From a virus: a stretch of 64,000 bases of DNA. Where the stretch lies: positions 13,345 to 77,344 of the IMG/VR virus record IMGVR_UViG_3300037852_000415. One strand, written 5' to 3'. The notes under the pieces were generated by a model. That model did no database searches, was not told the DNA's origin, and saw only the letters and a list, made by a program, of their open reading frames with translations. Below, piece after piece: positions 9,361-63,159 of this stretch; the first letter of the stretch is position 1; every line of letters begins with the position of its first letter. A program made the position numbers and the translations under genes.

Positions 9361-9749
9361 CGGATGACGACATCAGGGCGCAGGCGCAGGCGGTGCGGGC
9401 ACAACACCCTCGCGCCGCGGCTGCTATCGTGGAGCTCCTGCGTCAACGCGATGAGGCAAAAGAGATGCTGCGGCGAGAGACGGGCACGCTCGAGAAGATG
9501 GCTGAAGAGCATGTTGACGCGATGGCCGCACTAGAGATGAAAGTCGCGGGGGCGACCGCGCCAGTCGACGCCTTGCGCGCGAAGCTGGCAGATGTCACAC
9601 GCGTCGGTTCACTGCTCGCGAACGCCGCCTTCAACCTGAGTCAGAACGAAGAGCTCGCGGCGGAGATTACGGACCTACTGCGCAACCTGTCGAGAGAGTG
9701 GGATAGAGCCTTCGCGCGGGCCGCGGTCGCTATTGAGGCGAAGCCGTGA
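9357..9749 (+). CDS. coiled-coil hypothetical protein
   Basis: Heptad-like, ATGA overlap, GGAG RBS. Confidence 0.55.
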   Translation: MTDDDIRAQAQAVRAQHPRAAAAIVELLRQRDEAKEMLRRETGTLEKMAEEHVDAMAALEMKVAGATAPVDALRAKLADVTRVGSLLANAAFNLSQNEELAAEITDLLRNLSREWDRAFARAAVAIEAKP

Positions 9750-9876
9750 AGACGTGGCTCACCGAGGTATGGCGTCTACTCGAGGTTCTCGCCGGTGTCA
9801 CGTTCGCCGTCACCGCGTTTCTCTTCTTCGTGTCCGTCATCTTCGCTATCTGGGAACACCGCGAGCGAGACAAGCG

Positions 9877-11013
9877 ATGAGCGCCGACGTCGACAACCTC
9901 GACATGGTCGAAGTCAGGCCCACTATGTCGAAGACGGATGCGCTCTTAGCGTGTGCTTGGAGATGGGGCCGAAAAGCCCCCAGAGACCCCGGGGGCGAGC
10001 CTGCACGCTTCGGCACCGCCTGCCACGAGGTCTACGCCGCCATCGCGAGTAGTTCGCTCGACGGCAAAGAGCTTCGCGCCGCGTGCGTAGCGGCAGCGGA
10101 TAGGCAGAAGGTGGATTGGAAAGAGGTGTACGGCCTCGTCACCGCCAGCTGGCCCGCATTCGAGAAGTGGATGTCTAGAGGCAATCCGTGGAAGAAGGAC
10201 TTCCTCGACGCCGGCATGCTGAAGCTCGAGTACAGCGTCGCCTACGACGTCTTGAAGGGCAAGGCGAGGGAGTGCGAATCGCCCGATGAGGCAACGCACG
10301 AGTACCGCGATTGCGACTTCAACGAGCTCCCCGGCACCGCCGATATCGTCATGTGGCGCCGCAACGAATACCTCGTCGTGCTCGACTACAAGACCGGCGC
10401 CGACGTGCCGGAACCCTCGCAGTCGGGGCAGATGAAGAGCCTCGCTTTGGCGCTGAGCCTCATGTACAAGGCGCCCCTCGTCATCGTCGGCTTGATGCAC
10501 GCGCCCCGAAGCGCTGGCGGGCTCCCATCAGTATATGCCGACACCCTCACCGAGAAAGACTTGAGGGCGCACCGCGCGGCGCTCAAGGATGCGTGGCTCC
10601 GACGCGGCACCTCGATGACGCCGGGGCAGTATTGTCAGTATTGCCCCTGCCTTACGACGTGCCCCACGCAAAGCAGCATGCTCGTTGAGTTGAAACGCGG
10701 AAGTCAGGGATTGGCGCTTACCCCCGAGCGTGTCGGCGCCATCCACATGGCGCTCGCGCAGTACGACGCTCTGAAGGAGCAGCTACAAGCGCAGCTGAAA
10801 AGCTGGGTAGTGAAGAACGGCCCCGCGCCTCGCCCCGACGGCAAGCTCCTCGACATCGTCGAGCGGCAGTACGAGACGCTCTCAAAAAGCTCCGTGACTA
10901 AGGCGCTAGGCGAAGTCGAAGGCGCGAAGGAACTAGAGCGCCTACGCAAAAAAGGGTGCCTCGTCACCAGCACGCGCGAGGAGCTGCGTGCCGAAGCGGA
11001 GAAGATGCGGTAA
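9877..11013 (+). CDS. Cas4/RecB-like PD-(D/E)xK exonuclease (DUF2800-like)
   Basis: GTACH, GTAD, LDYKTG, C-terminal CQYCPCLTTCP; start moved to ATG 9877. Confidence 0.85.
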   Translation: MSADVDNLDMVEVRPTMSKTDALLACAWRWGRKAPRDPGGEPARFGTACHEVYAAIASSSLDGKELRAACVAAADRQKVDWKEVYGLVTASWPAFEKWMSRGNPWKKDFLDAGMLKLEYSVAYDVLKGKARECESPDEATHEYRDCDFNELPGTADIVMWRRNEYLVVLDYKTGADVPEPSQSGQMKSLALALSLMYKAPLVIVGLMHAPRSAGGLPSVYADTLTEKDLRAHRAALKDAWLRRGTSMTPGQYCQYCPCLTTCPTQSSMLVELKRGSQGLALTPERVGAIHMALAQYDALKEQLQAQLKSWVVKNGPAPRPDGKLLDIVERQYETLSKSSVTKALGEVEGAKELERLRKKGCLVTSTREELRAEAEKMR

Positions 11014-33929: not shown

Positions 33930-35459
33930 ATGGCTACAGCAGAAAACGACGGCCTGGAGGCCTTCGAGGAGTCGAGTATCGAGGAAGAGACTGAAGAGGA
34001 AGAGGCTGGTGAAGAAGAGCCCGAAGAGGTGCCCGCCCCGCCCGCGCCTGTGCACCTCGCCAAGACTAAGACGCCCGGCGCGGCTGCCGATAAGAAGCGA
34101 AAGCCCCGCAACGACAAGGGCGGCACCCACGCTGCGCCCGGTGAGGGGTGGACCAATCGCGAGGCAGACCTCATGTGGCCCGAGATGCTTCAACGCATCG
34201 GGCGGCTCAATCCCCCGCGTACGCCGTACGACCTCAGCATCCAAGTGATTCGGTTGTCGCCATCAGCGGTGACGTTGCCGAACCAGATCGACGGCGCCTA
34301 CGTCGTCGGCGACAAGCGCCGTTCACCGGGTGACGCGCTCAGGGAAGCCGTCATCGACTACTACCACCTGCCCGCCAACTGCGGCCCCGAAGAGTACGAG
34401 CTACGTTTCGTATGGAAGCAGACCGGGCGCGTCTACGGCAGGGGGAAGCTCACTCTCCCCTCCTGCGAAGAGATCATCGGCTACAGGCAGGCTGCCGAGC
34501 GCATGCGGCGCCGCCCCAGACAGGCTCACGGAGGCATGGCGAATCCGGCGCTCGACGATGCGCCGTACGATGAATTCGAGCCGCCCCAGGCGCCGCGCAG
34601 GACCCCCGTAGGCTACGGCGCTGCGCCGCCGCAAGCGCCGGTGTTTGCGCCTGCGCCGTCGGCGTCGGCTGCGGACGCCTCTGGCGAGGTTGGCTACCTG
34701 CGACAGCAAGTAGGCTACTTGAGCGGGCAGCTGCAGCAGCTGATGGGTCTCATGGGCAAGCCTGGCTTCGGCGCCGCGCCGCCGTCGACGGCGCCAACCG
34801 GTGTCGCTGCAGCGCCGATGCCTGCGCCGCAAGCGCCGCCTGCCTCCTTAGAGGAGGCGATTGAGCGCGCCGCCGAGCGCATCCTAGCGCGCGCCGGCAT
34901 CAAGCCGGGTATGCCGGGTGTCGGCACCGCCGGTACGCCCCCGCCTACCCCCGCAAGTGCCACTAACGAGCTTCACGCCGGCATCAACGCCTTCCGCACC
35001 TTCGTCGGTTTGGGCAAAGAGCTCCGACATCTCGCGAAGGAATTGAACAACGACTTCGGCGAAGGCGCCGGGGGCGCCGACGAAGAGCCGCAGCAGCTCA
35101 TAGCGGAGCCCGTCGTCACTCCACCTAGCCCCGAGGATAAGCTCCCTTTCGAGGTGGTGCCCATTCCCGAGACAGACTTCCTCGGACACCCCGCAAAGTA
35201 CGCCATCGATAAGGAGACGGGCGGCTTCTCGAGGGAGGGCTTCTTCATGGCGAACCCCGGTCTCGCTGAAAAAGCCATCGAAGTTGGCGGCAAGCTTGTC
35301 GAGGCGCTTAGCCGTATCGGTAAGGGCGGGGCCCCCCAGCAAGCTGCGGCGGAAGTCGTGCGCGAGATTCCTAGGGGTGCAGTAGACGCAGGCGTCGCCG
35401 GCAACGGTGGCGGCAGTAACGATGGCGGTGAAGTGCCGGACGGTAACGGAGGACTCTAG
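33930..35459 (+). CDS. large hypothetical protein (acidic N-terminus, P/A-rich, GYGAAP/GFGAAP)
   Basis: AAGGAG RBS, 509 aa. Confidence 0.7.
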   Translation: MATAENDGLEAFEESSIEEETEEEEAGEEEPEEVPAPPAPVHLAKTKTPGAAADKKRKPRNDKGGTHAAPGEGWTNREADLMWPEMLQRIGRLNPPRTPYDLSIQVIRLSPSAVTLPNQIDGAYVVGDKRRSPGDALREAVIDYYHLPANCGPEEYELRFVWKQTGRVYGRGKLTLPSCEEIIGYRQAAERMRRRPRQAHGGMANPALDDAPYDEFEPPQAPRRTPVGYGAAPPQAPVFAPAPSASAADASGEVGYLRQQVGYLSGQLQQLMGLMGKPGFGAAPPSTAPTGVAAAPMPAPQAPPASLEEAIERAAERILARAGIKPGMPGVGTAGTPPPTPASATNELHAGINAFRTFVGLGKELRHLAKELNNDFGEGAGGADEEPQQLIAEPVVTPPSPEDKLPFEVVPIPETDFLGHPAKYAIDKETGGFSREGFFMANPGLAEKAIEVGGKLVEALSRIGKGGAPQQAAAEVVREIPRGAVDAGVAGNGGGSNDGGEVPDGNGGL

Positions 35460-37250: not shown

Positions 37251-38375
37251 ATGCGCAGCGCGCGTGACGCAGAGCTGATGCTGATGCCCCACTTGCGGCG
37301 CGGCGTCGGGCAGCTTTCAGACTCGGCGCAGATTCAAAGCGTACTCGGAGGCATCCCAGGCGTCAGCCAAGGCCAAGTCAATCAAGCCATTACGACGTAC
37401 AACGGGCTAACTTCGGCGGCGACCGGGAGCATCCTCGGCATCCTCAATGGCGGCCCCATCAACGCCGCTACGCTTGGGCCGGTTGTGGCGTCTGGGATGG
37501 CTTTGTTAGGCGCTACGGCGCCCGAGATTGCTGCAGTGGCGATCGGCTTGTCGGTGCTCGGCGCTTTCGCCTCCTTGTTCGCCCCGGCGCCTCAGAACTG
37601 TAGTTGGCGTGTCGCCAACAAGTGTTTCAACGCCAACCGCCCTTCGGGCCCCGGCGACCCAGCGTGGATGACGTGGGGTCAATTCGCCCAGAACCCGCTC
37701 GACGTCGCGGCGGCGTTCCCTTGGTACTACGTGCAGGCGTGCGACCTCGGCGCCATCAACTCGACGCCTACGCCATCACCGCAGCTGCAGTTTCTGAAGA
37801 CGTACTACGCTGCGTGGCAAGCGAACGCCGAGTATCTCATCAACGGGTATCAGGCGATTGACGATTGCGCCCTCCTGACGATTGTGGCTAACGCGTGGAA
37901 CAACGGGCACGACGGGAGCTCTACGTATACATTCCAACCGACGCCCGCTTTCGGTCTTCAATCTGAGTGGGATTCGAGCTTCCCTGGCGGCATTCCCCGT
38001 GCGGTGCAGTGCCCCGGAGACCAAAACCTGCCCCCATTCGTTCCCGGCGCGCCGCCGACAGCTAGGAGCTACGTCGGCCTCTTGATGGATGGTGACATCA
38101 CCGCTACGCGATGCAGCGCCCAGGGGCTTCCCATCAACACGGGCGGGGCGTTCTTGACGAGCCACTTCATCCTGCCCCCCAAGGGCCCATCGGTGCCATC
38201 GACGACGTCAACAGGCGCGAAGGTTGCACTCGGAGGCGCCGCAGTCGTTGGCGCCGGGCTGTTGGGGATTGGCTTGTTGGCGCTTATCAAGGGGTGGGGC
38301 TTCGGTAAGGCAGTCGACTACGTGTGGGGTAAGACGGGCAAACCCGCCATCGCCTACGTCAAGAAACACGTCTAA
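37251..38375 (+). CDS. membrane virion protein (RRGVGQ leader, C-terminal TM)
   Basis: Hydrophobic segments, Cys-containing domain. Confidence 0.7.
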   Translation: MRSARDAELMLMPHLRRGVGQLSDSAQIQSVLGGIPGVSQGQVNQAITTYNGLTSAATGSILGILNGGPINAATLGPVVASGMALLGATAPEIAAVAIGLSVLGAFASLFAPAPQNCSWRVANKCFNANRPSGPGDPAWMTWGQFAQNPLDVAAAFPWYYVQACDLGAINSTPTPSPQLQFLKTYYAAWQANAEYLINGYQAIDDCALLTIVANAWNNGHDGSSTYTFQPTPAFGLQSEWDSSFPGGIPRAVQCPGDQNLPPFVPGAPPTARSYVGLLMDGDITATRCSAQGLPINTGGAFLTSHFILPPKGPSVPSTTSTGAKVALGGAAVVGAGLLGIGLLALIKGWGFGKAVDYVWGKTGKPAIAYVKKHV

Positions 38376-43194: not shown

Positions 43195-43650
43195 ATGGGA
43201 CGGCCCCCGAAAACACCTGAGGAGCATGCCGCACGTAACGCGTACAGACGAGCACACTACGCTGCGCACAAAGATGAGATAAACGCTCGGCGGCGCGCCC
43301 CTGAGGCACTTGAGCGATCGCGGGCCGCCGGCCGCGCGCGGTACGCTGCACACAGAGACGACCCCGGCTTCAAAGAAGAGAATAGGGCTAGGGCGCGTGC
43401 GTACGTGGGGGCGCACAAAGACGATCCCGAATTCATCCTAATCTGTTCTCGCTTGATGGCTGTGGGTGGTGGACGTGGAGGGCGCGGCAACAATACCGCT
43501 CACGTAGACCACGATCATGTTACCGGTGAAGTGCGCGGGCTCTTGTGCCACGCATGCAATATAGGCATCGGAGGGTTGAGAGACAGCATCGCGCTACTGA
43601 AGAACGCCGTCGCGTACCTAGAGAGCGGGCCATCATGCGTACTGGCGTAG
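43195..43650 (+). CDS. endonuclease VII domain protein, possibly degenerate
   Basis: HVDHDHVTGEVRGLLCHACNIGIG; first CxxC pair incomplete. Confidence 0.75.
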   Translation: MGRPPKTPEEHAARNAYRRAHYAAHKDEINARRRAPEALERSRAAGRARYAAHRDDPGFKEENRARARAYVGAHKDDPEFILICSRLMAVGGGRGGRGNNTAHVDHDHVTGEVRGLLCHACNIGIGGLRDSIALLKNAVAYLESGPSCVLA

Positions 43651-45281
43651 GAAGCGATTCGTTCAATCCTGGCGTCAACAGGATGCGCGCAGCCGGCGTG
43701 AAGGTCGACGTGCAACCTTACAGCGACGGCCCCGCGGGTGTCGGCCAGAGCCTCGACGTCATCGCCCAGAAGATTCGCGAAGGCGCTGCTGACAGTGACC
43801 TGCAGGGATGGAGTGCCGAGAAGCTTCGCGCCGCCGGGTTCGACGGGCGCGCCAAGACGCCGACGGTACAGCAGCTCTGCGAAGTTCTTCTGGCCGCCTA
43901 TCGGCAGGAAGTAATCTATGCCAGTGATCCGGCGCGCACCGAGCAGATCCAATCGCCCGCCGCGACATTGTGCTTACGCCCGGGGCTGTGCCTTCGACGT
44001 GGTGACTGCGACGACGGAGTCGTCGCTCTCGGCGCGGCCATTCTGTCGTACGCTGTGCCCGTGCGGGTTATAAAACAGCCATACGCTCAGCAAGAGCACG
44101 TATTGCTGGGCGTCATCGACGACAGCGGCACAGTCTTGTACGTCGATACCGCTAACAACCTGTATAAGGTAGGGCCTGGCGGTTCACCGGGGTGTCCGCC
44201 TAAGGTGCCTGGCGAAACCTATGTCGACCCCATGAATAGCGCCCCTGCCGGCCCCGCCGGCACCTCTGGCGCCCAGCTTATCACCCTCGGAGCCTCGCCC
44301 AAGATGCAATCTCAATCGCAGTCGTCTCAAGCCGTCTATAGGCACAACAGATGGTGGCGCCTCAGCGCCGGCTGCGGCGGCAACCTCGAAGTTCACGAAG
44401 GCGGCAACTGGTACAGAGTCGGCACCGGCCAGGCCCCCGCGGCGCCGAGCGACTTCGCAGCTCTGAAGGCGGCGCAGGATGCGCAGTGGAGCCAGGTGTC
44501 GGCGCAGATTCAAGCCTGCAGCTCTGGATTGACGGCATCTTCGCAGTCGGCGTTCGCCTCCGACTATGCCACGTGGCAAGCCTTTGCGGCGTCGACTACG
44601 GCGACGGCGGACGACTACACGCGCCTTCGCGCCTTCAACAGCATCCTTCAGGTGTGGCAGCTGAAGGCGCAGGTCTACTGCAACGCCGCATCGAACCCCG
44701 GCGGCGCCGTCGGCGTCGGCGCGATTCACGTGCCGGGCATCAACTGCAACATCGACGACTTGAAGGGGCAGAAGTTGCGCCTCCTCGGGCCCTGGACGCA
44801 GCTCGGAAACGACGTCGACAACTGCCCGCTCTGCAAAGACGACCGAAGCCTCTGCGCCGCGACGAGCGCGTATCCCAACGGGGCCCCGAACGGGATGACG
44901 CTGACGCAGAAAACCGACTTCCTCCAAGACTTCCTCACGTTTCAGAACTGGTACAACGCCGACTTCCCCATCTGCGACGCCGATGCCGAGATAAACCAGG
45001 GGCGCGATCTAGAGCAGCGCTACGACAGGTGGCGGAAGATTGTCACCCAATTCTGCACCGGCGCGAATCTGCCGGGGGTGCAGTCGCCTGACTTGCCCCC
45101 GCTCCGCAATGACGACCCCCGAAGCCCCAACTACGTACCCCCGGCCGGCCCCGGCGACATCGCAGCAAGCATCGCGAAGAGTGTCGCCGTCGTCGGCGTC
45201 GCAGCCGCCGCGATCTACGGTATGTACATCATCGCCCCGGCGGCGCGGAACCTCTTCGATAGAGTCACCAAGAAGAAGTAG
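43635..45281 (+). CDS. transglutaminase-like (Cys-His-Asp) enzyme fused to two repeated helical domains and a C-terminal TM
   Basis: GDCDD (Cys 44007), EHV (His 44097), YVD (Asp 44145); start ATG 43635. Confidence 0.8.
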   Translation: MRTGVGSDSFNPGVNRMRAAGVKVDVQPYSDGPAGVGQSLDVIAQKIREGAADSDLQGWSAEKLRAAGFDGRAKTPTVQQLCEVLLAAYRQEVIYASDPARTEQIQSPAATLCLRPGLCLRRGDCDDGVVALGAAILSYAVPVRVIKQPYAQQEHVLLGVIDDSGTVLYVDTANNLYKVGPGGSPGCPPKVPGETYVDPMNSAPAGPAGTSGAQLITLGASPKMQSQSQSSQAVYRHNRWWRLSAGCGGNLEVHEGGNWYRVGTGQAPAAPSDFAALKAAQDAQWSQVSAQIQACSSGLTASSQSAFASDYATWQAFAASTTATADDYTRLRAFNSILQVWQLKAQVYCNAASNPGGAVGVGAIHVPGINCNIDDLKGQKLRLLGPWTQLGNDVDNCPLCKDDRSLCAATSAYPNGAPNGMTLTQKTDFLQDFLTFQNWYNADFPICDADAEINQGRDLEQRYDRWRKIVTQFCTGANLPGVQSPDLPPLRNDDPRSPNYVPPAGPGDIAASIAKSVAVVGVAAAAIYGMYIIAPAARNLFDRVTKKK

Positions 45282-45808: not shown

Positions 45809-47476
45809 ATGTCTGACTACATCGACATCATGCAGCAGGAGACCGGAGACGACATGGCAGCCAGCCGACGCCGAAGCCGCCGCGCCAAAAGCGGCAAAAA
45901 GTCGAAGAATCGCGCGGCATTCGAGCGCGCCAGGCGCATCGCGAAGAAGCGCCCCGCTCCGAAGCGGCGCAGCGCACGCAGAGGCGCAAAAGAAGCTTCA
46001 CGCGCGAAAAGTCGTACCCGCCGCTTGACAAAAGCGCGTAGGGCAGTGCACACTTCCCGAAGTGCAGGGGAGTCTCGGGGAAAACGAAGGAACCGACGTC
46101 GCAAACAGCGAGTTTCCAGGGAGACCCCGTCAATGGCCCGTAAACGAAAGCGCAGCTGCAAGTACGGTAAGCTCAAGGTGAAGCGCGGGCGGCGCCGGTG
46201 TAAGAAGCCGGCGGCGGTGCACGCTCGCCGGAAGAGCGCGAAGCGCGTGGCGGCTGGCCGGAAGGCCGCCCGCACCCGCAAGCGCCGCGCCGGTCGGGGG
46301 AGCCCCTCCCACGGTATGCACTCTGCGTGGGAAGCTCCGAAGCGCAAGCGTAGCAAGAAGCGCGGCAAGAAGCGCAGCCGCGCTAGCTACAAGCGCAAGC
46401 GTCCGGGCCATCGCAAGCACAGCGTGAGGGGCTACTACCGCAAGAAGAGCCGCGGTAGCCGCAAGCGCGTCTACGTCAGGGGCCATCGGAGCCATGAGGC
46501 CCCGAAGCGTCGTCGACGCCGCCGGCATCACGCCGCCGCAAAGCGCCACTCGCGTCGCCACTACCACCGTCGCTCTCGGGCGATGGAGAACCCCATCTCC
46601 GTGATGGACGGCGTGGTCGGCGGCGTTTGCGGCCTCATCGGCTACGGCGCGGCTGAAGTCGTGGACCGCCTCCTCGCCACCCACGCCCTCACCGACACGA
46701 ACACCAAGGACGCGAACGGGGTGGAACTCTACACCGACCCCGCCGACTCGAGCGGTCACTGGAATGCCACCTACGTGCTCGGGCCCATGAGCCTCGGCAG
46801 GTGGGCGGCAGGCCTCGGCATCGCAATCGTCCCGCTCTTGGCTGGCGGGATGATCAAGAAGCCTGCGCTGCGCTCCTGCGTGCAGTTCTTCGGCTTCGGC
46901 GCGTTGATTCGCACCGGCGGAAAGGGCCTCACGGATCTGCTCGCCTACGTCTCGCGCAAAACCGCGGTCGGCCAGCGCCTCTTCATCCCCGAAGACAGCG
47001 CCCAGTCCGCGCTCAGCGCCGGCAAGTACGACACGACGCTCCCGGGCATCGCGCCCGGACCTACCGGCCTCGCGGGGCTTCCCCCCGCCGGCTGCGGGTG
47101 CGTCAACTGCAAGACGGGCGTCGGCGCTTGCTGCGGCAAGACGACCATCGCTCAGCTTCAGCAGGGCACCATCCAGCGCGCCACGGGGCAGCCCCAGACG
47201 GGCTCTGTCGCCAACCCCACCGTCAACACCGGCGAGACGGTAGGCACTCCGGCTCAGCAGCCTCCGGGCGGCGCGAACCAGGGCGGCACCCCTGTCGGCG
47301 TCGCCAATCCGCCCTCGCCGTCGCCAGTCGGCGTCGTCTTCGGTGGCGGTGGCATCGTGCCCTCTACTTCACCTGGACCCCTCCGCGGGGCCCCGCTTGG
47401 CTCGGGTGCAGGCCGCTCCCCGGCAATGCCCGTCCTTTACAACCCCAACATTCGGCGCATGGCCGAAGGAAACTAG
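45809..47476 (+). CDS. protamine-like basic core/membrane protein
   Basis: About 250 aa R/K/H-rich N-terminal part, then hydrophobic segments and a P/G-rich tail; directly precedes the capsid candidate. Confidence 0.75.
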   Translation: MSDYIDIMQQETGDDMAASRRRSRRAKSGKKSKNRAAFERARRIAKKRPAPKRRSARRGAKEASRAKSRTRRLTKARRAVHTSRSAGESRGKRRNRRRKQRVSRETPSMARKRKRSCKYGKLKVKRGRRRCKKPAAVHARRKSAKRVAAGRKAARTRKRRAGRGSPSHGMHSAWEAPKRKRSKKRGKKRSRASYKRKRPGHRKHSVRGYYRKKSRGSRKRVYVRGHRSHEAPKRRRRRRHHAAAKRHSRRHYHRRSRAMENPISVMDGVVGGVCGLIGYGAAEVVDRLLATHALTDTNTKDANGVELYTDPADSSGHWNATYVLGPMSLGRWAAGLGIAIVPLLAGGMIKKPALRSCVQFFGFGALIRTGGKGLTDLLAYVSRKTAVGQRLFIPEDSAQSALSAGKYDTTLPGIAPGPTGLAGLPPAGCGCVNCKTGVGACCGKTTIAQLQQGTIQRATGQPQTGSVANPTVNTGETVGTPAQQPPGGANQGGTPVGVANPPSPSPVGVVFGGGGIVPSTSPGPLRGAPLGSGAGRSPAMPVLYNPNIRRMAEGN

Positions 47477-47529: not shown

Positions 47530-48813
47530 ATGGCTGGTCGTCTCGCAAAACCCACTCAGAAGAACCCGCGGCTGACGCTCGGCGTCGGCCAGGGCACGCC
47601 CAACTCGGACATCGTCAACCTCTTCAAGAGCGCGACGAGCTGCCCCATCTACGCTTTGCCGACGGTGGCGAAGCGCCAGTGGGAGTTCGAGGGCCCGGTG
47701 TCGCAGGCCAACGTTCAGCGAAGCCTCGGCAACCAGATCGACATCCTCGGCGGCAGCAACGCCACGGCGCCCGACAACGTCTACCAGACCGACGGGCTCA
47801 TCAACGGTGAATTCCAGACGTACGTCCTCGCGTGCGCCGTCGGAATGCACCTCGAGCCGGAACCCATGTGCTGGACGGCGCAGGGCAACGCGATTCTCGT
47901 GCCGGGCTCGTCCATCCCGATGCCGAACAGCCCCGACGACTACACCGTGCTCGACCAGAGCAACTTGGTGTACGGCGGTGCGACGCAGTCTGTGCCTCAG
48001 GTGCAGACGAGCATGCGGCGTGCGGTGCTCGAGTGGGGCTGGTGGGCGAACTACGCCTTCTGGCACCTCGTCCGCGGGTACAACCTCCGTTGGACCTACG
48101 GCTCCCTCATCAACATCATGGACGAGCAGCTGCGCGACACCGCGTACACGCCGCCCAACGCTCAGGAAGGCTCTGCCTCTTCGAGCCAGGTTGCTATCTG
48201 CGACTTCGTGCAGCGCACGAACCAGCGGTACATCTCGACGCTCGCCGCGACGCGCATGTTCCTCTGGCAGAACCTCGTTCGCGTCGGCACCCTCGGCGCG
48301 ACGACCACGTCGACCGAGACGCAGGGCAAGTTCCGGCCCTTCGACGACGTCCTCGTGGACGCCACCTACGGAGGCATGGATCTGCGAAGCATGCTGCGTA
48401 ACAACAGCGAGTTCCGCACCCTCGAGCAGCCGTACATCCTGAAGCCGGGCGTTCCGCCGGGCCTCATCCTCGAAGCGAACGGCGACAACGCCGAGCAGGC
48501 GCTCTTCCAGGCGCAGTTCGACGCGTCGGGCGGCTTCACGGGCGCGACCCCGCCTTACTCGTTGACCCCCTTCGGCACGCTCATCGCGAACGGCGCCGGC
48601 CAGGTGTTCGACGAGCTCTCGGCGGACAACGTCGATGTTCTCCAGCAGGTCAACACCGAGCACTACGTGTTCAAGGGCGGAACGGCGCTCATGAGCATGG
48701 AGATCAAGGGCTACGAGATCACCGAGCCCCTCGCGGACCAGATCAAGAGCGACCCCACGCTCCAGGCTCAGATCTGCTCCGAGTGCGGCTGCGCGGTCGG
48801 CTGGGCCTCGTAA
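47530..48813 (+). CDS. candidate major capsid protein (single-jelly-roll-like, with insertions)
   Basis: Strong AGGAAGG RBS, near-exclusive C/G third positions, flanking hairpins; NGEFQTYVLACAVGMHL / FRTLEQPYILKPG..GLIL / MEIKGYE strand pattern. Confidence 0.55.
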   Translation: MAGRLAKPTQKNPRLTLGVGQGTPNSDIVNLFKSATSCPIYALPTVAKRQWEFEGPVSQANVQRSLGNQIDILGGSNATAPDNVYQTDGLINGEFQTYVLACAVGMHLEPEPMCWTAQGNAILVPGSSIPMPNSPDDYTVLDQSNLVYGGATQSVPQVQTSMRRAVLEWGWWANYAFWHLVRGYNLRWTYGSLINIMDEQLRDTAYTPPNAQEGSASSSQVAICDFVQRTNQRYISTLAATRMFLWQNLVRVGTLGATTTSTETQGKFRPFDDVLVDATYGGMDLRSMLRNNSEFRTLEQPYILKPGVPPGLILEANGDNAEQALFQAQFDASGGFTGATPPYSLTPFGTLIANGAGQVFDELSADNVDVLQQVNTEHYVFKGGTALMSMEIKGYEITEPLADQIKSDPTLQAQICSECGCAVGWAS

Positions 48814-49563: not shown

Positions 49564-50457
49564 ATGGCGCCTCGCCAAAAAGAGTACCAGAGCTGGGGCA
49601 TCGACCAGAGCGCTGCGTTCGTCGAGACGGACCCGTTTGGCGGGCTCTCGAGCCTCGGCGTCAAGGTACCGACACTCTCGACAGCCGCGCTGCCCTCGGC
49701 GAATCCGCCGACGCTCGGGTACAACAGTCGCTACCTCTTTCACCTCGCGAGCTTCCACGTGCCCGAGAGTGGCGGGTGTGCGCGCATCACCGGCTACCGG
49801 CTGAACGTCCAGATCTGGGCGTTGCAGTCTGGCGAGGGCGGCAACCGGTACGTCAAGCAAACCGTCTACGACCCCGCCTTCAGCTTCCAAGACGGCAACT
49901 GGAGCTGGCACCTGCGCTTCATCCCCGATGTCGGGATGAACGGCATCAGAGTGAGCCCCCCTCTGCCCGTCAATCAGAATGACGGCACGACGGCAAACCT
50001 CGATGGCACTGCGTACCGATGGGCTGACACGCCCGCGATTCTCTATGAGAACATGCTCGTCGCCGCCGGAGATCCCTTCTACGTCGATCTGTTGGATTAC
50101 ACACCCCCGAATAGCGGCAGGCCTTGGGGAGAGCCCCTCGCCGGCATGGGCACATTCTACGGCGTGAGCACGCCTTGGAATACGCACGGCGCATGGAGCG
50201 CGCTCGATATCGAGTGCGATGCGCCAGGCACCTACGCCCTCTTCTGCAGCGTTAGGCAAACGAATAGCTCTACGCGAACCCCGCTGACGCCGCCTGGCAC
50301 CTTCTTCGGTAACGGTCTCTCCGCCGAAGAGCAGTTCCTCTTGAACTTCCCCGGCGCCTGGATCGGCTCTGTTGGGGGGAGCCTCGTAGTCACCTCCGAC
50401 GACGGCGACTGCGGCGACCAGTTCGGCAATCGTGAGAAGGAAGGGCCCTGCTCCTAA
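49564..50457 (+). CDS. candidate penton/minor capsid protein
   Basis: SFHVPESG..RITGY pattern; GGGAGG RBS; position in the module. Confidence 0.4.
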   Translation: MAPRQKEYQSWGIDQSAAFVETDPFGGLSSLGVKVPTLSTAALPSANPPTLGYNSRYLFHLASFHVPESGGCARITGYRLNVQIWALQSGEGGNRYVKQTVYDPAFSFQDGNWSWHLRFIPDVGMNGIRVSPPLPVNQNDGTTANLDGTAYRWADTPAILYENMLVAAGDPFYVDLLDYTPPNSGRPWGEPLAGMGTFYGVSTPWNTHGAWSALDIECDAPGTYALFCSVRQTNSSTRTPLTPPGTFFGNGLSAEEQFLLNFPGAWIGSVGGSLVVTSDDGDCGDQFGNREKEGPCS

Positions 50458-57493: not shown

Positions 57494-58109
57494 ACTAGCC
57501 GCTGAGCGCGATTTAGAAAGCGCTCTGATCGATACTCCACACTGGGGCAGTATAGTCGCGGAGGTTCGCCGCAACCTACTGGCGGGCCACTACAAGGATC
57601 AGCGCATAGTCGATGCTATCTTCCAACGCGACAAGCGCGCCGGAAGATTGACGTTCGAGGAGGCGCACTGTTTCGCATGCGTATGGTGCGCTATCGCGGC
57701 CGGTGACATAGCCGTAGGGACTGTCACTGTGGGCGGAACACCGTACGCCGATGCTCAAGTCGACGATAACCTGGCCGCGCTGCGCAGACTGCCGCAGCTA
57801 TTCGACGTGACCATCAACCGATCCGCTAACGGCGATGGGCTACTGACATGGTCCTCGCCGATGTTCATGTACAGACGCACCCCAAACACAGACATCAAGG
57901 AGAAAGTGCGCGTACCCGCCGGCTCGTTAGCGTTGGAGATCGGTACGACGATGGCCAGCCGTACGTGGATGCACTTCACTACAGGCTTCGGTGTTGCTCG
58001 CTGGCCTTACGGAAGTCCATGCGTAGTCATTCTGCGACGGCTAGATTGGGACGGCGCTTCTGTATTGCCGCCTGGCGACGATGGATTGGAATCGTTTACC
58101 ACAGAGTAA
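57477..58109 (+). CDS. hypothetical protein
   Basis: Probable GTG start at 57477; converges on the recombinase. Confidence 0.5.
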   Translation: MSTWHELAAERDLESALIDTPHWGSIVAEVRRNLLAGHYKDQRIVDAIFQRDKRAGRLTFEEAHCFACVWCAIAAGDIAVGTVTVGGTPYADAQVDDNLAALRRLPQLFDVTINRSANGDGLLTWSSPMFMYRRTPNTDIKEKVRVPAGSLALEIGTTMASRTWMHFTTGFGVARWPYGSPCVVILRRLDWDGASVLPPGDDGLESFTTE

Positions 58110-59124
58110 CCGCGCGCCGTGCGCGCGCGTCAGCGTCCACCTGCCTCCGGTCGTACCGCGCGGTAGTGCGGGGGCTCTCGTGCCCCATCAGACGTTGCAC
58201 CGTCGCCAGATCTAGCCCCGCCTCGAGCAGGAACGTGCAGTACGTGCGCCGACAGTCGTGTGGCGTGAAGCTTTTGACCCCCGCACCGGCTGCCGCGGCC
58301 GCGCAGAGACGCCCTAGCCACTGCGAATTGAGCGCCTCGAGCCCCTTCCGGCCCTCGAGCCGTACGAAAAGCCAGGGGCGCTTCACCTTCAGCGCCGCGC
58401 GAGCCTCGAGCCAAGCCCCCAAACAGGCGCTTTCCGACGCCCCCACGGGCACCTCGCGCTCCTTTCGGCCCTTCCCGACCACGCGGACGACCCCCTCGGC
58501 GTCCCACGCCTCCACGGGGGCGCAGCAAACCTCTTCCGCACGCAGCCCCGCACCGATCATTAGGGCGAAACACCCCCGCACAAGGGCCCCGTACGCCCCT
58601 GCTAGCCCCTGCGACCACGCCCGAAGCTTGCTCAACTCCTCCGAAGTGAGGCTCCTACCGGCTGCGAGTGAGCTCCCGCGGGGCGTTTCTACGCTGCGGA
58701 GCAGCTCATACCGCTCCCGATTGATGCAGCCGAGCTTCCAAGCGTGCTTGAAAACGCTCCTCAGAGCTGAAAGGGTGACCGCGACGGTGGCCCGGCGGTA
58801 CCGTTTCACCAGCTCACCCCCGATAAAGGCGACGTCGGGGTACTCCAAAGAGCCCCACGGGTAGCTGCGCCACCCCTCAGGCTCTTTATCTACGTCCACG
58901 CCGAGGCACTTGAGGGCTCTTTTGAGCCCCTCTCTAAGCGTCTCCTGGCTCCTAGAGGAATAAAGAGCGTCAAAGGCGGCCTCCGCGGCTAGCGCGCGCG
59001 GCGCGGCGCGCACCACGCGACCCCCTACAGCCTTCGCCGGCACCATGGGGCGCGCGGGCTCCTCTGTAGGTACAGCCGGAAGTAGTACTAAAGCATCGAT
59101 ATCGTTGACTTTTTCGTCGATCAT
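58096..59124 (-). CDS. int: tyrosine recombinase/integrase
   Basis: GLRAEE (R), GKGRKER (K), HDCRR (HxxR), LMGH, RYD (Y); GGAGAAGG RBS. Confidence 0.93.
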   Translation of the reverse strand: MIDEKVNDIDALVLLPAVPTEEPARPMVPAKAVGGRVVRAAPRALAAEAAFDALYSSRSQETLREGLKRALKCLGVDVDKEPEGWRSYPWGSLEYPDVAFIGGELVKRYRRATVAVTLSALRSVFKHAWKLGCINRERYELLRSVETPRGSSLAAGRSLTSEELSKLRAWSQGLAGAYGALVRGCFALMIGAGLRAEEVCCAPVEAWDAEGVVRVVGKGRKEREVPVGASESACLGAWLEARAALKVKRPWLFVRLEGRKGLEALNSQWLGRLCAAAAAGAGVKSFTPHDCRRTYCTFLLEAGLDLATVQRLMGHESPRTTARYDRRQVDADARARRAVTLW

Positions 59125-59137
59125 GGCCTTCTCCAGA

Positions 59138-60055
59138 GGGCCTAGTTGCTATTAGGCCCACGTGAGAGAGCCTACCGCGCAAGGCTTTTCACGGCCAGTT
59201 TCCAGCGCCTTTGGTGCGATAAAGTACGCTACGAAGCCCGCCAGGCGGGCTCTTTGGCCTAGCCCCCGTGCGGGTTTCTGGCGCACCAAGGAGACGTCTA
59301 GCCTCGCCAGCGGGCCCGCTCGGGGGGAGGCACGGATGGGGAGGGGTGCCTCGTGAGGCTTTCCTGGTGTCTCCTAGGCGCTACGGCTGAGGTAGGATGT
59401 TCTCCCACCTTGTCGTCGAAAAACCCGGACGAAGCGAAACCGCGTACGCGGCTACGCGGGGAGGTGCGTAGGCTTCGCGCCAAAGCCGGCTCGGCCGACG
59501 GGATTCCGCTAGCTTAGCCGTGGCACGGGGGGTGCAACTACCCCTTTTGACGGCGCGCAGTAGGGCGCCAGGCAGGGTAACCAGCCCTGAACGGGGAGCG
59601 CGACTCCCCGCCCGCTCAGTACGGGGTCCGACCGAAGGGAAAGCCTTCGGTGCCCGGCAGTACAGGGTATGCCTGGCGCTCGCGTCCCACGCGAAGGGAC
59701 GGCGCGACGGCCATAGCAGCCTAAGCCCGCGTCCCACGCGCGAACCGCGTGGGAAAGGGTGCCCCCGATCGTAAGTCTCTCGCAGAGTCGTCCACGCCGC
59801 GTGACGTGGCCTCGCGAGACAAGGTCCAGAGGGGGAGCGCACTTCTAGAAAGCGCGAAAGAGCTCGGCGGAACCGAGCCACCCAAGGCATGTTGCAAAGC
59901 CCGAGATACCGAAAGCGCGCGCAAGCGCGTAGGGGTTAGGCACGAGAGACGCGTAACGCACGTCACGTGCCCCGGTTGACTGACAATCGACCGCGCGCTT
60001 TCGGATGTATCGGTCGCGATTCGTCAACGTCAAACTCGGACGAGGCGCGACCGAT
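59138..60055 (+). ncRNA. candidate large structured non-coding RNA (~920 nt)
   Basis: More than 15 nested stems, long-range helices of 10-13 bp, G-U pairs mostly on the + strand, no credible ORF. Confidence 0.6.
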
Positions 60056-60359
60056 GCAATTCTATAGCGACAGAAAACGGGAGCATGAGAAGTACGCCTT
60101 GCCGAATTGCGAGGTGTTCTACGTCAGCAAGGGCGAATGGTGGTACGACGACGCTGGCGAACGTTGTGATCCGTACGCGTGCCTAGCGTGCGCTACCGAG
60201 GAGTGTACCGAGCACCCTGGCGGGCCATGTGAGGCAGGCTGGTACTACTGGTTTTGCTTCCCCGGATGTCTGCCGGATAGCGAACCGTCGGGCCCCTACG
60301 ATAGTGCAGAAGCCGCTATCGCGGAGTGCCGTGAACTGTGGGAAGACGAGGAGTCGTGA
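60054..60359 (+). CDS. early-type hypothetical protein
   Basis: GWYYWFCFPGCLPDSEPSGPY; ATG 60054. Confidence 0.65.
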   Translation: MQFYSDRKREHEKYALPNCEVFYVSKGEWWYDDAGERCDPYACLACATEECTEHPGGPCEAGWYYWFCFPGCLPDSEPSGPYDSAEAAIAECRELWEDEES

Positions 60360-60733
60360 GCTCGAATCCGCGAACGTTTCAACCTACTACCGTCGCCAAC
60401 GCCTACGATGAGGCGCTCGCATACCTCGGCGGCAAGTCGAGCCGCAAGATCGCGCATAACACCTACCTCGCGAAGATCTTCGACGGCTGTATCGCGGTCA
60501 CCTACCACGGTAACGCAGTCATTCAGTACCGCACTGATGGGATCTACGTATCCTCATGCGGTTGGCGCACGTTCACCACGAAAGAGCGCCTGAACTGGTT
60601 TCTCCCGCGCGGCACGTGGGACGGTGAACGCTGGCACGACAACGTCGGGGTGTACCAAGAAGCCCGTGAGTGGTATCTCGCAGGGCCGGAGCCGCACCGC
60701 GTGCGGCGGTTTGAGGACGGAATGGTGGTCTAA
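60356..60733 (+). CDS. phage-type hypothetical protein
   Basis: RKIAHNT, VTYHG, GWRTFTTKERLN. Confidence 0.65.
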   Translation: MSSNPRTFQPTTVANAYDEALAYLGGKSSRKIAHNTYLAKIFDGCIAVTYHGNAVIQYRTDGIYVSSCGWRTFTTKERLNWFLPRGTWDGERWHDNVGVYQEAREWYLAGPEPHRVRRFEDGMVV

Positions 60734-61850: not shown

Positions 61851-62362
61851 GCGCCGCCGCTCGTTTCGCCGACGCGCGTCTCGCCCTCGCCTACCTTCTC
61901 GGGGGCCATGCGCGCGTCACGCTCGTCAGTAAAAAGACGCAGGCGCGGTACACCTACCGCGTCAACATCAGCAAAGACAAGCGTCGCTTCTACGTCGCGG
62001 TGCTGACGGGGGCCGACAACGGGAGTGCTTACGAATTCATCGGCACTATCTTCCCCGACGTCGACGTACCGGGGGAAGGAGCGCGCTTCGCCTACGCGCA
62101 AAAGAGCCTACTCGCACCTAACGCTGCGTCGGTAGTGGCGTTCGCCTGGACGTTTCCGAAACTGGCGCGGGGCGTAATGCCCGAAACGTTGGAGGTGTGG
62201 CACGAAGGTGTTTGCGGAAGATGCGGGAGAGCTCTTACCGTTCCCTCGAGTATCGAAAGCGGCTTGGGGCCTGAGTGCCAAAAGAAAACCATACGTGGCC
62301 ACTATGAATTCGGGCAACTAGCCGAGTTTGAAGCCGACTTGAAAGGAGACCTACGCAAGTGA
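61847..62362 (+). CDS. DUF6011 Zn-finger protein
   Basis: HEGVCGRCGRALTVPSSIESGLGPEC. Confidence 0.8.
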   Translation: MSAAARFADARLALAYLLGGHARVTLVSKKTQARYTYRVNISKDKRRFYVAVLTGADNGSAYEFIGTIFPDVDVPGEGARFAYAQKSLLAPNAASVVAFAWTFPKLARGVMPETLEVWHEGVCGRCGRALTVPSSIESGLGPECQKKTIRGHYEFGQLAEFEADLKGDLRK

Positions 62363-63159
62363 ACGCCGACCTCATCGCCAAGATCAAGAAGCTTCGCGCC
62401 CTCGCCACGAGCACAAACGTCAACGAAGCGGCGAACGCCGCCGCTGCAGCCGAGCGGCTCATCGCAGAGCACCAGCTTAGTGAGGCAGATCTCGCTACCG
62501 AAACCGTCGCGCCTGGCGAGGCGTGTGAAGCCTTCACCGACCCGCTTTTCTCGCACGACGGCGAACGCCGCACTTACTGGAAAGAGTGGCTCGCGGCGGG
62601 CCTAGCGCGGCTCTATGGCGTAGTCCTCGACTGCACGTGGGTAAAAGTGCAAGCGAAACTCCCCTACTACCCGTACACCGGTACCGCTTCGCGCGTCGGC
62701 TTCACCGCTATCGGCACGAAGAGCGACGTGGAGCTACTCCGCTACCAGTACGCCTACCTCTCAAGCGAGATTGAGCGTCTCGCACAAGCGTTTCTCGACG
62801 GCAATAGCTTCGCGCGAGGCGAGGCCAAGACTGCGGGCAATAGCTTCCGCGTCGGCGCCGTCGAGGGCGTCATTGCAGCTATGCGCGAGGCGCGGGGCGC
62901 TACTGTCGTGGAGCACTCCGCCAAACACGGCAGCGGTGCGGCGCTCGTGCTCGTGTCGAGGCGCGACGCCGCCGTGGAGCTTCACAAGAAGCTACACCCC
63001 GACAAGTACAAGAAAGACGGCGGTGTGAAAGGCTGCACTACTGTGCGCTCCAACTGCAACGGGGCAGCGCGCGAGGCTGGCCGGCGCGCGGGCGCTGCGC
63101 TGCATAGCGCGGGCGCACTGGCGGGCGGCGCTAGCCGTCAACTAGGAGGCGGCAAGTGA
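62359..63159 (+). CDS. DUF2786 domain protein
   Basis: KIKKLRALA.S.N.NEA..A...AERL...H.L. Confidence 0.8.
   Translation: MNADLIAKIKKLRALATSTNVNEAANAAAAAERLIAEHQLSEADLATETVAPGEACEAFTDPLFSHDGERRTYWKEWLAAGLARLYGVVLDCTWVKVQAKLPYYPYTGTASRVGFTAIGTKSDVELLRYQYAYLSSEIERLAQAFLDGNSFARGEAKTAGNSFRVGAVEGVIAAMREARGATVVEHSAKHGSGAALVLVSRRDAAVELHKKLHPDKYKKDGGVKGCTTVRSNCNGAAREAGRRAGAALHSAGALAGGASRQLGGGK

What the first reader, a model, noticed from the sequence alone, without database searches (positions are those of the whole stretch)
59138..60055. Candidate ~920-nt structured RNA between a tyrosine recombinase and the early genes
Seen: this is the only long gene-free stretch in an otherwise packed genome, and it is almost continuously self-complementary in nested domains. 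Helices: 59138-45/59152-59; 59161-73/59182-93; 59289-95/59369-75 enclosing 59300-07/59353-60 and 59327-33/59346-52; 59380-90/59514-24 (11 bp, 2 G-U); 59563-74/59670-81 (12 bp) enclosing 59592-98/59604-10 and 59631-38/59644-51; 59732-40/59746-54; 59909-21/59992-60004 (13 bp perfect). Most imperfect pairs are G-U on the + strand (one A-C exception near 59394), and loops include GCAA, GAAAG and CGAAC, which favours a + strand RNA over a DNA cruciform. A 13-nt direct repeat CGCGTCCCACGCG occurs at 59681 and 59728. Known: phages carry large ncRNAs such as GOLLD and ROOL. I do not recognise this as any such family. Inference: a new large ncRNA class, a long regulatory leader, or (speculatively) an RNA partner of the adjacent recombinase.
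Basis: partly seen in the sequence, partly recalled or inferred. Interest (0 to 1): 0.85.

Follow-up and report, generated by a model that had tools for sequence, protein, structure and literature searches.

The report
New large structured RNA, soil virus
The 0.9-kb gene-free gap between the integrase and the early genes of this 77-kb soil virus most likely encodes a folded RNA of about 830 bases that matches no known RNA family; one related virus keeps its shape through compensating mutations, and its function is unknown.

Summary
Window 59167-60097 is the longest stretch of the 77-kb genome without codon periodicity. Folding beats shuffles (z -8.1 on +, -5.4 on -), and no Rfam family or tRNA matches.

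Only one homolog could be fetched: the syntenic virus G001, with 71-79% nucleotide identity, invariant blocks up to 29 nt and two insertions (32 and 94 nt). Substitutions show no 3-base periodicity (p 0.7-0.97), unlike coding controls (p 2.5e-10 to 6e-4).

The consensus fold is far better than column-shuffled alignments on the + strand (z -11.6) than on the - strand (z -4.9). In the 177-nt core, 55 of 55 pairs are kept: 6 through double changes and 5 through one-sided changes, all G-U on +. The next domain has 19 double changes in 48 pairs.

I read this as a five-domain + strand RNA, about 59230-60059, running into the early genes. Its covarying 3' hairpin covers the first AUG. It is probably a giant leader or an ornate ncRNA.

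It does not track the integrase, which is only 44% identical in G001. It is absent from more distant relatives and from 80 other integrase loci.

Limits: two sequences, no transcript data, function inferred.

The parts
59230..60059 (+). Candidate structured RNA, whole extent (about 830 nt; about 950 nt in the related virus G001)
   Evidence: Homology with G001 (L008:3487-4416, minus strand) runs from about 59233/59267 to 60059. Consensus fold z = -11.6 on +, -4.9 on -. No codon periodicity in composition or in substitutions. The ends are inferred from conservation, not from transcript data.
59230..59377 (+). Domain 1 (5' domain), the least conserved; invariant GUGCGGGUUUCUGGCGC at 59268-59284; possible helix 59233-41/59270-78
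Evidence: Domain consensus fold z = -2.8 on +, +0.7 on -. In helix 59233-41/59270-78, two A-U pairs become G-U in G001.
59378..59546 (+). Domain 2: closed by an invariant helix 59380-90/59514-24 with two G-U pairs; holds invariant blocks of 29 nt (59442-59470) and 24 nt (59513-59536); hairpin 59527-32/59541-46; G001 has a 32-nt insertion after 59433 and a 94-nt insertion after 59547
   Evidence: Domain z = -2.7 on +, -3.7 on -, so this domain alone does not decide the strand.
59551..59709 (+). Domain 3 (core): helices 59551-58/59702-09, 59565-74/59670-79, 59592-98/59604-10, 59614-22/59660-68, 59624-27/59652-55, 59631-38/59644-51, 59683-88/59696-701
   Evidence: 55 of 55 pairs are kept in both viruses, against 39-44% when partners are slid. 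There are 6 double changes (4 of them in 59565-74/59670-79) and 5 one-sided changes, all to G-U on +. Domain z = -5.1 on +; doubles 6 against a null of 1.1.
59716..59895 (+). Domain 4 (variable in sequence, conserved in shape): closing helix 59716-20/59891-95, hairpin 59732-39/59747-54, helices 59757-60/59880-83 and 59762-66/59831-35, hairpin 59862-67/59873-78 with invariant loop CGGAA
   Evidence: 48 consensus pairs, 19 with changes on both sides. z = -9.9 on + against -4.8 on -; doubles 19 against a null of 8.8 +/- 2.1.
59909..60004 (+). Domain 5: long-range helix 59909-13/60000-04 plus 59917-22/59993-98 closing a multi-hairpin junction; it competes with an invariant local GCAA-loop hairpin at 59916-59929
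   Evidence: In G001 the helix is kept with a compensatory A-U to G-C change, and the inner hairpins are replaced by longer ones. Domain z = -7.7 on +, -3.7 on -.
60006..60058 (+). 3' terminal hairpin: 13-bp stem 60006-18/60046-58 and inner stem 60020-24/60040-44. It buries the ATG at 60054 and part of the GGACGAGG Shine-Dalgarno-like run at 60038-45. No U-tract follows.
   Evidence: Kept in G001 with 3 double changes in the outer stem and 1 in the inner stem, although G001 lacks the downstream 101-codon gene.
59125..59229 (.). Virus-specific spacer next to the integrase start, with two hairpins (59138-59159, 59161-59193). Probably holds the divergent promoters and possibly the recombination site.
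   Evidence: Not alignable with G001 except for short motifs (TTTT-C/G-NCGG, GATAAAG). No sigma-70-like promoter was found. The role is inferred.
58096..59124 (-). Tyrosine recombinase/integrase gene, divergent from the RNA
   Evidence: PF00589, E = 1.4e-23. Homologs listed. G001's copy is 44% identical.
60054..60359 (+). First early gene (101 codons, Cys-rich, no family). Absent from G001, where a mini-ORF stands instead.
59681..59740 (+). 13-nt direct repeat CGCGTCCCACGCG (59681-93 and 59728-40). Each copy is the 5' arm of a different hairpin.
   Evidence: Not conserved as a repeat in G001, so it is incidental.

Best explanation
The gap encodes a large (about 830 nt) multi-domain RNA read on the + strand, starting about 100 nt from the integrase start and running without a terminator into the rightward early genes. 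It most likely forms the structured 5' part of the early transcript. Shown: the sequence is non-coding. Its helices are preserved between two viruses by compensatory and G-U-compatible changes. The + strand fits much better than the - strand. The last hairpin, which covaries, encloses the first start codon and part of its ribosome-binding site. Inferred: the RNA acts in cis as a gate on early-gene expression. The choice between the long-range helix 59909-22/59993-60004 and the invariant local GCAA hairpin at 59916-29 may set whether the start-codon hairpin or the downstream message is accessible. The highly conserved core (domains 2-3) may bind a host or viral factor. Promoter, ends, ligand and effect are unknown.
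For: Non-coding: the region is the longest stretch in the genome free of codon periodicity. Substitutions against G001 show no 3-base periodicity (p 0.73-0.97), whereas three coding controls give p 2.5e-10, 1.6e-6 and 6e-4. Indels of 32 and 94 nt are tolerated. Structure: the consensus fold is -279 kcal/mol against -192 +/- 7.5 for column shuffles (z -11.6). Pairs predicted confidently from one sequence alone are kept in the other at 48% of changed pairs against a null of 28% (0 of 5000 shuffles reach this), with 14 double changes against 5.4. Domain 3 keeps 55 of 55 pairs against about 40% when partners are slid. Domain 4 has 19 double changes in 48 pairs. Domain 5 and the terminal hairpin have 8 double changes. 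Strand: consensus z is -11.6 on + against -4.9 on -, and four of five domains favour +. All 5 one-sided changes in the core give G-U on +. In a GU-free, strand-symmetric consensus, internal single mismatches are G-U on + at 7 sites and A-C at 1 site. Leader reading: there is no terminator-like site on + between the RNA and the first gene. The covarying 3' hairpin covers ATG 60054. The RNA sits at the head of the long rightward gene block.
Against: Only two independent sequences exist, so the covariation statistics are weak by R-scape standards, and RNAalifold consensus structures are fitted to the data. There is no RNA-seq evidence, no recognisable promoter and no defined ends. Domain 2 folds slightly better on the - strand. 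Tests with single-sequence structures do not separate the strands. In G001 the start codon inside the hairpin opens only a 16-codon ORF, so gating of one particular gene cannot be the conserved role. An 800-nt leader is without clear precedent in phages. One metagenome contig (run X3) lacks 59642-59888 and 60032-60376 yet is otherwise about 97% identical, which suggests the intact RNA may be dispensable or that this genome is defective. More distant relatives (G002, G003) lack the element.
Confidence: 0.45

Rival explanations
1. A stand-alone 'ornate' large non-coding RNA that acts in trans, in the manner of GOLLD or ROOL of phages. It would be made early in infection and fold into a compact, possibly multimeric particle that binds or encloses some host or viral component. 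Its position in front of the early genes would then be incidental.
For: Size, multi-domain architecture, long invariant blocks next to covarying helices, and sites that tolerate large insertions (32 and 94 nt in G001). GOLLD likewise has a conserved and a less conserved half plus a disordered linker (PMC12286853). The RNA is conserved although the gene behind it is not. Several invariant loops carry self-complementary CGCG (59599-603, 59689-95), which could form kissing contacts; this last point is speculation.
Against: No terminator or processing signal separates it from the early genes. Its 3' hairpin overlaps a start codon. There are no tRNA genes nearby, unlike most GOLLD and ROOL loci. 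There is no similarity to any Rfam model.
Confidence: 0.3
2. The functional RNA is the - strand: a long leader of the integrase mRNA, or an antisense RNA starting near 60060 and ending at the GC-rich hairpin 59234-59253.
For: The - strand also folds better than shuffles (z -5.4; consensus z -4.9). Domain 2 is slightly better on -. GGUAGGA/UCCCACC at 59393-59411 has a conserved A-C that would be G-U on -. Both viruses carry a GC-rich hairpin at the left edge, where a - strand RNA would end.
Against: Consensus folding and G-U statistics favour +. The only terminator-like site on - (59459-59440) loses its T-run in G001. The integrase was exchanged while the RNA was kept, which does not fit an integrase-specific leader.
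Confidence: 0.1
3. A DNA element rather than an RNA: the attachment or resolution site of the integrase with its accessory sites, operators of the lysogeny switch, or a packaging site. The palindromes would then be protein-binding or cruciform sites.
For: It lies beside a tyrosine recombinase, in the divergent control region where such sites usually sit. Watson-Crick double changes are equally compatible with DNA hairpins.
Against: The strand asymmetry of wobble pairs and of consensus energy is not expected for duplex DNA sites. The conserved part is shared by viruses whose integrases are 44% identical, while the integrase-proximal 100-140 nt differ. No conserved direct repeats or iterons were found. 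No tRNA-like fragment was found. The extent of 800 nt is far beyond known att or operator regions.
Confidence: 0.07
4. A replication primer or origin transcript: a long structured RNA that forms a persistent hybrid at an origin and primes the virus's family A DNA polymerase, in the manner of ColE1 RNA II.
For: The virus encodes a family A polymerase and a VapE-type primase-helicase. This is the one long conserved non-coding region of the genome. There are conserved G-runs, for example 59527-32.
Against: The cumulative GC skew has no extreme here. There is no AT-rich unwinding element or iterons. Nothing links the element to replication genes, which lie far away.
Confidence: 0.05
5. A guide or partner RNA of the adjacent tyrosine recombinase, by analogy with the bridge RNAs of IS110 recombinases.
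For: Adjacency only, in both viruses.
Against: The RNA and the integrase do not evolve together: 71-79% nt identity against 44% aa identity, with no DNA alignment for the integrase. Relatives with an integrase in the same position lack the RNA, as do 80 loci of related integrases. The papers found in a literature search describe no RNA-guided tyrosine recombinase. The RNA points away from the integrase gene and is not part of its transcript.
Confidence: 0.03

Closest known systems
GOLLD and ROOL RNAs (large ornate RNAs of phages and prophages; cryo-EM nanocages, PMC12286853)
   Same: Virus-encoded and 0.6-0.8 kb or longer. Many-helix architecture supported by compensatory changes. A conserved part and a variable part, tolerated large insertions, no known protein partner and unknown function.
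   Different: No match to their covariance models, even at E<=10. No tRNA island nearby. It abuts and overlaps the start of an early gene instead of standing alone. It is known from only two viral genomes. Multimerisation is untested.
Leader-encoded immunity RNAs of phages P4 (CI RNA) and P1/P7 (C4 RNA)
   Same: A structured RNA in the untranslated leader of the early or replication operon of a temperate element, next to the integration and immunity region. This gives a plausible way for a leader RNA to control the genes behind it.
   Different: Those RNAs are about 70-80 nt (from my own knowledge), they pair with short repeated target boxes in the same transcript, and the C4 family is in Rfam. 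Here the RNA is ten times larger, no repeated target box was found and there is no Rfam match.
Cis-acting antitermination and leader RNAs (HK022 put, lambda nut, EAR, rRNA leaders)
   Same: Sits at the very start of the early transcription unit, is co-oriented with it, and no terminator lies between the RNA and the genes.
   Different: Those elements are one or two hairpins of 30-120 nt (from my own knowledge). Nothing here resembles boxA/boxB, and no terminators that would need overriding were identified.
IS110-family bridge RNA / IS1111 seekRNA
   Same: A structured non-coding RNA encoded next to a recombinase gene.
   Different: Those recombinases are DEDD/RuvC-like enzymes, not tyrosine recombinases (PF00589 here). 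Those RNAs are about 150-200 nt with guide loops, and they evolve together with their recombinase, which this RNA does not do.
Group II intron RNA
   Same: Comparable size and multi-domain fold. The conserved part begins with GUGCG (59268), the canonical intron 5' end.
   Different: No hit to any group II model (domains 1-4 or 5-6). There is no domain V-like hairpin, no flanking exons in one frame and no reverse transcriptase.

Membership tests
Known Rfam families (GOLLD, ROOL, OLE, HEARO, raiA, C4, group I/II introns, RNase P, tmRNA, 6S and the others; 4227 models) | Score at or above the family's gathering threshold against its covariance model | tested here: not met
   No match at gathering score in the 64-kb window. 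At E<=10, only chance-level miRNA or CRISPR-repeat fragments of 14-19 bits appear, in the window region and in G001's copy.
GOLLD / ROOL | Typical context: phage or prophage, often beside tRNA islands (PMC12286853) | tested here: not met
   It is in a virus, but ARAGORN finds no tRNA or tmRNA in 64 kb.
Large 'ornate' structured ncRNA (descriptive class, not a homology family) | More than 500 nt, non-coding, with many helices conserved through compensatory changes | tested here: met
   The limit is that only two sequences are available.
Large 'ornate' structured ncRNA | Expressed as a discrete RNA | not testable with these tools
   No run listed as RNA holds the sequence, which says nothing either way.
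Cis-regulatory 5' leader | Co-oriented with and contiguous to the regulated gene, no terminator in between, and a structure that overlaps the ribosome-binding site or start codon | tested here: met
   Hairpin 60006-18/60046-58 covers ATG 60054 and covaries. No + strand terminator-like site is present.
Cis-regulatory 5' leader | The regulated gene is conserved together with the leader | tested here: not met
   G001 keeps the RNA and the hairpin but lacks the 101-codon gene. The next shared gene starts at window 60356.
attP / recombination site of the adjacent tyrosine integrase | Site specific to the integrase; core identical to a host site (often a tRNA 3' end); arm-type repeats | tested here: not met
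   The conserved region is shared by viruses with 44%-identical integrases. There is no tRNA-like fragment and no conserved repeats. The host attB could not be searched because the host is unknown.
IS110-type bridge RNA | Encoded beside, and co-evolving with, a DEDD-type recombinase | tested here: not met
   The recombinase is PF00589. The RNA is retained while the integrase is exchanged, and it is absent from 80 related integrase loci.
Group II intron | 5' GUGYG, catalytic domain V, flanking exons | tested here: not met
   GUGCG is present at 59268, but there is no model hit and no + strand coding sequence upstream.

The most novel reading that the evidence does not exclude
This is the founding member of a new class of giant ornate viral RNA, comparable in rank to GOLLD or ROOL. 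It is carried by an undescribed lineage of soil viruses whose structural genes match no phage family. It would have its own tertiary or quaternary architecture, or a catalytic or factor-sequestering activity that launches the early programme.
Probability: 0.25. Interest if true: 0.85.

Novelty: new variant of a known kind. Interest (0 to 1): 0.66.

Why it matters
RNAs longer than 500 nt with conserved, intricate folds are rare in bacteria and their viruses. The few known classes (GOLLD, ROOL, OLE) turned out to form unexpected RNA-only assemblies, and their functions are still open. A further class unrelated to those would add a new case for structural and functional study. Its fixed position at the head of the early genes suggests a testable role in starting infection or in the lysis-lysogeny decision. 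The host virus is itself unusual: no recognisable capsid, portal, terminase or tail genes were found. That makes the RNA a possible entry point into the biology of an unknown virus group. The caveat is rarity: only two genomes, plus strain variants in a few soil metagenomes, carry it.

Tried and rejected
- Homolog searches that gave nothing:
  - blastn against the GenBank phage collection found nothing.
  - The single-protein integrase scan of IMG/VR found nothing.
  - Five exact or degenerate RNA-motif scans of IMG/VR returned only G001 plus chance hits (L012, L115, L116, L117), each checked by eye and with nhmmer.
  - An IMG/VR scan with the early protein 62359-63156 found nothing.
  - One motif scan of 185,579 species genomes gave 18 hits at the number expected by chance; none extends beyond the motif.
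Its back-translated patterns were generic, so it returned only 24-41%-identical integrases. None of these has the RNA by nhmmer or by covariance model.
These are P0002 (76% identity), P0003 (67%, on a 69.6-kb contig) and P0004 (50%).
- No RNA holder is listed among the sequencing runs.
- Laid contigs of four soil runs gave no new independent sequence. They showed a G001-type contig, a variant about 2% different, and a variant with two deletions.
- The idea of a protein gene was rejected. The 169-codon - strand ORF (59381-59890) has no family, no GC3 bias and no periodic substitutions. Its translated similarity to G001 is what 76% nt identity gives in any frame.
- No trans targets were found: 12-mers complementary to the rest of the genome occur at chance level, and none is shared by both viruses.
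- The TTTCTGGCGC repeat as an operator was rejected, because it is not enriched.
- The host could not be named. The only named integrase relative is from a Pyrinomonadaceae MAG, at about 34% identity.
- The integrase-adjacent gap of G003 is neither homologous nor unusually structured (z -0.8).
Full report
**Setting.** The window is bases 13345-77344 of a 77,344-bp IMG/VR virus record. It has a 62-bp terminal overlap, so the genome was assembled as a circle. It comes from soil metagenomes. The finding lies between a tyrosine recombinase gene on the - strand (58096-59124; PF00589, E 1.4e-23) and a long block of + strand genes of unknown function that match phage families phrog_554, phrog_20259 and phrog_421.

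- A scan for codon-position GC periodicity marks window 59167-60097 (930 nt) as the longest aperiodic stretch of the genome. The next longest are 420-540 nt.
One (59161-73/59182-93) is imperfect.
- The 13-nt direct repeat is exact.
- The 931-nt region folds to -460 kcal/mol on either strand, z -8.1 (+) and -5.4 (-) against dinucleotide shuffles.
- 300-nt windows inside it reach z -5.3 to -5.6 on +. The background of 116 windows elsewhere in the genome has mean -0.44, sd 1.4 and minimum -4.3.
- Rfam gives no match at gathering score and nothing meaningful at E<=10. There is no tRNA or tmRNA.

**Relatives.**
- A capsid-candidate search in IMG/VR found three related records.
- G001 (75.6 kb) is syntenic with this genome over its whole length, at 65-82% nt identity in alignable genes. 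It has the same order: HTH gene, 225-codon gene, integrase, gap, early genes.
- Its gap aligns with window 59267-59934 at 71-79% identity, and again at 59990-60059.
- The integrase genes cannot be aligned as DNA and are 44% identical as protein. So the integrase module was exchanged or diverged, while the gap was kept.
- The alignment alternates invariant blocks of up to 29 nt with variable stretches. G001 has insertions of 32 and 94 nt.
- The more distant G002 and G003 (capsid 42% identical) also have an integrase followed by an ORF-poor gap. That gap is not homologous and not unusually structured (z -0.8). A covariance model of the core finds nothing anywhere in their records.
- No further homolog could be obtained (see Tried and rejected).

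**Coding or not.**
- Substitutions between the two viruses are spread evenly over the three phases (p 0.73-0.97 for all sub-regions).
- Three coding controls from the same genome pair show the expected excess at third positions (p 2.5e-10, 1.6e-6 and 6e-4).
- The largest ORF (169 codons, - strand) has no family, no GC3 bias, and indels of 32 and 94 nt in G001.
- The region is therefore conserved non-coding sequence.

**Conserved structure.**
- On the 932-column alignment, the RNAalifold consensus on the + strand is -279.1 kcal/mol. Column-shuffled alignments that keep gap and identity patterns give -192.4 +/- 7.5 (z -11.6). On the - strand the values are -216.1 against -175.0 +/- 8.4 (z -4.9).
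- As a less circular test, I took pairs predicted with probability >=0.8 from the window sequence alone and looked at them in G001. Of 62 pairs with a change, 30 stay paired (48%), against 28 +/- 5% when G001's letters are permuted within classes. None of 5000 permutations reaches this. Double changes number 14 against 5.4 (P 0.0006).
- Domain by domain, after realigning each block:

| Domain | Coordinates | z on + | z on - | Double changes (observed vs null) |
|---|---|---|---|---|
| 1 | 59230-59377 | -2.8 | +0.7 | not above null |
| 2 | 59378-59546 | -2.7 | -3.7 | not above null |
| 3 | 59551-59709 | -5.1 | -3.7 | 6 vs 1.1 |
| 4 | 59716-59895 | -9.9 | -4.8 | 19 vs 8.8 +/- 2.1 |
| 5 plus terminal hairpin | 59909-60058 | -7.7 | -3.7 | 8 vs 4.3 |

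- In the 177-nt core, every one of 55 pairs is standard in both viruses, against 39-44% when partners are slid by 1-3 columns. Six pairs changed on both sides. Five changed on one side, each time to G-U or U-G. Apart from the flanks, only a hairpin loop position and a 3-nt junction vary outside helices.
- Domain 4 is the opposite case. Its sequence is poorly conserved, but its shape is kept through 19 double changes in 48 pairs.
Its inner hairpins differ in length. The terminal hairpin keeps 13 + 5 pairs with four double changes.

**Which strand?** The evidence favours + at roughly 4:1, but it is not unanimous.
- For +: the consensus energies and z-scores above; four of five domains; all five one-sided changes of the core.
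- Also for +: a strand-symmetric test. In a consensus computed without G-U pairs, single mismatches flanked by Watson-Crick pairs are G-U on + at 7 sites and A-C (G-U on -) at 1 site. Helix-end extensions are 23 against 14 cells.
- Against: tests based on single-sequence minimum-energy structures do not separate the strands. Domain 2 is marginally better on -. One small hairpin (59393-59411) has a conserved A-C.

**What it probably is.** A + strand RNA of about 830 nt (about 950 nt in G001) with five domains.
- Its 5' edge is set by where conservation begins: a possible helix 59233-41/59270-78 and the invariant GUGCGGGUUUCUGGCGC.
- Its 3' edge is set by the hairpin 60006-60058, after which the two viruses differ.
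- No sigma-70-like promoter was found. A weak shared GATAAAG lies about 8 nt before 59233.
- No terminator-like site on + separates the RNA from the genes. The only such site on - loses its T-run in G001.
- The hairpin encloses ATG 60054 and part of the GGACGAGG run before it. In G001 the same ATG opens only a 16-codon frame, and the first shared gene begins at window 60356. So the hairpin belongs to the RNA rather than to one gene.
- The 5' strand of the long-range helix (59909-22) overlaps an invariant local hairpin with a GCAA loop (59916-29). The two cannot form together, and both are conserved. That is the kind of alternative pairing used by regulatory leaders.
- GUUGCA at 59891-96 can pair either with 59716-20 or with the loop at 59533-38. 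The change in G001 is compensated at both partners.

**Ranking of the readings.**
1. Giant cis-acting leader of the early operon (0.45).
2. Stand-alone ornate RNA acting in trans (0.30).
3. - strand RNA (0.10).
4. DNA element such as an att site or operators (0.07).
5. Primer or origin RNA (0.05).
6. Recombinase partner (0.03).

The recombinase-partner idea fails on linkage, for four reasons:
- The RNA is kept while the integrase is exchanged.
- The integrase-proximal 100-140 nt are the unconserved part.
- Relatives with an integrase in the same position lack the RNA.
- 80 loci of related integrases lack it.

**Comparison with known systems.**
- By sequence and structure model, it belongs to no Rfam family.
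- It works most like one of two things. One is the large ornate phage RNAs GOLLD and ROOL: size, conserved and variable halves, insertion-tolerant sites, unknown function (PMC12286853). The other is the leader-encoded regulatory RNAs of temperate elements such as P4 CI, at ten times the size.
- It lacks the tRNA-island context of GOLLD and ROOL.
- A literature search found no paper describing an RNA partner for tyrosine recombinases.

**Caveats.**
- There are two sequences only, so consensus structures are partly fitted to the data.
- There is no expression evidence. The host, promoter and ends are unknown.
- One Logan contig in run X3 is about 97% identical in what it retains but lacks 59642-59888 and 60032-60376. 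If it is not an assembly artefact, the intact RNA is not indispensable.
- The element appears confined to a narrow clade.

**Verdict.** This is a real, conserved, non-coding and very probably RNA-level element of a new family. Its function is unresolved, and the link to the recombinase is not supported.

Noticed in passing
window 30555-51802 (structural region) and the whole genome: None of the large late proteins tested (33930-35456, 37251-38372, 43545-45278, 45809-47473, 47530-48810, 49564-50454, 36-1562) matches any Pfam or PHROG family. No terminase, portal, HK97 capsid or tail family appeared. Recognisable genes are a VapE-type primase-helicase (6985-8436, - strand), a PD-(D/E)XK nuclease (9733-11010) and a family A DNA polymerase fused to a UDG-like domain (23589-26135). 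The virus may belong to an undescribed lineage, as earlier first-stage notes suggested.
   Followed up: partly
window 58096-59124 versus G001 (L008:4500-5531): The integrase is the one gene in this neighbourhood that cannot be aligned as DNA between the two otherwise syntenic viruses (44% aa identity, against 65-82% nt identity in the flanks). This suggests module exchange, and probably different integration sites.
   Followed up: partly
window 59642-59888 and 60032-60376 (run X3, contig record 5): A soil-metagenome contig about 97% identical to the window joins 59641 to 59889 and 60031 to 60377. It therefore lacks half of the RNA core, all of domain 4, the 3' arm of the terminal hairpin and the first early gene. 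It could be a natural deletion variant, a defective genome or an assembly artefact.
   Followed up: no
window 60054-60359; G001 L008:3430-3500 (minus strand): The Cys-rich 101-codon first early gene is absent from G001. There, the same ATG opens a 16-codon frame, and an AGGAGG-led 10-codon mini-ORF precedes the shared gene that starts at window 60356.
   Followed up: no
window 15457-15756: This is the most strongly folding 300-nt window in the first 35 kb of the genome (z -4.3). It lies in the repeat-rich 796-codon gene (15431-17821), so it probably reflects the tandem repeats rather than an RNA element.
   Followed up: no
window 59533-38, 59716-20 and 59891-96: GUUGCA (59891-96) can pair with UGCAAC in a hairpin loop 360 nt upstream, or with GCAGC at the base of domain 4. 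G001 changes all three sites in a mutually compensating way (UGCAUC, GCAUC, GAUGCA). This could be a pseudoknot or a conformational switch.
   Followed up: partly
window 59690-95 and 59474-79: The invariant loop CGCGAA is complementary to the invariant TTCGCG in domain 2, a candidate tertiary contact. It cannot be tested because neither side varies.
   Followed up: no
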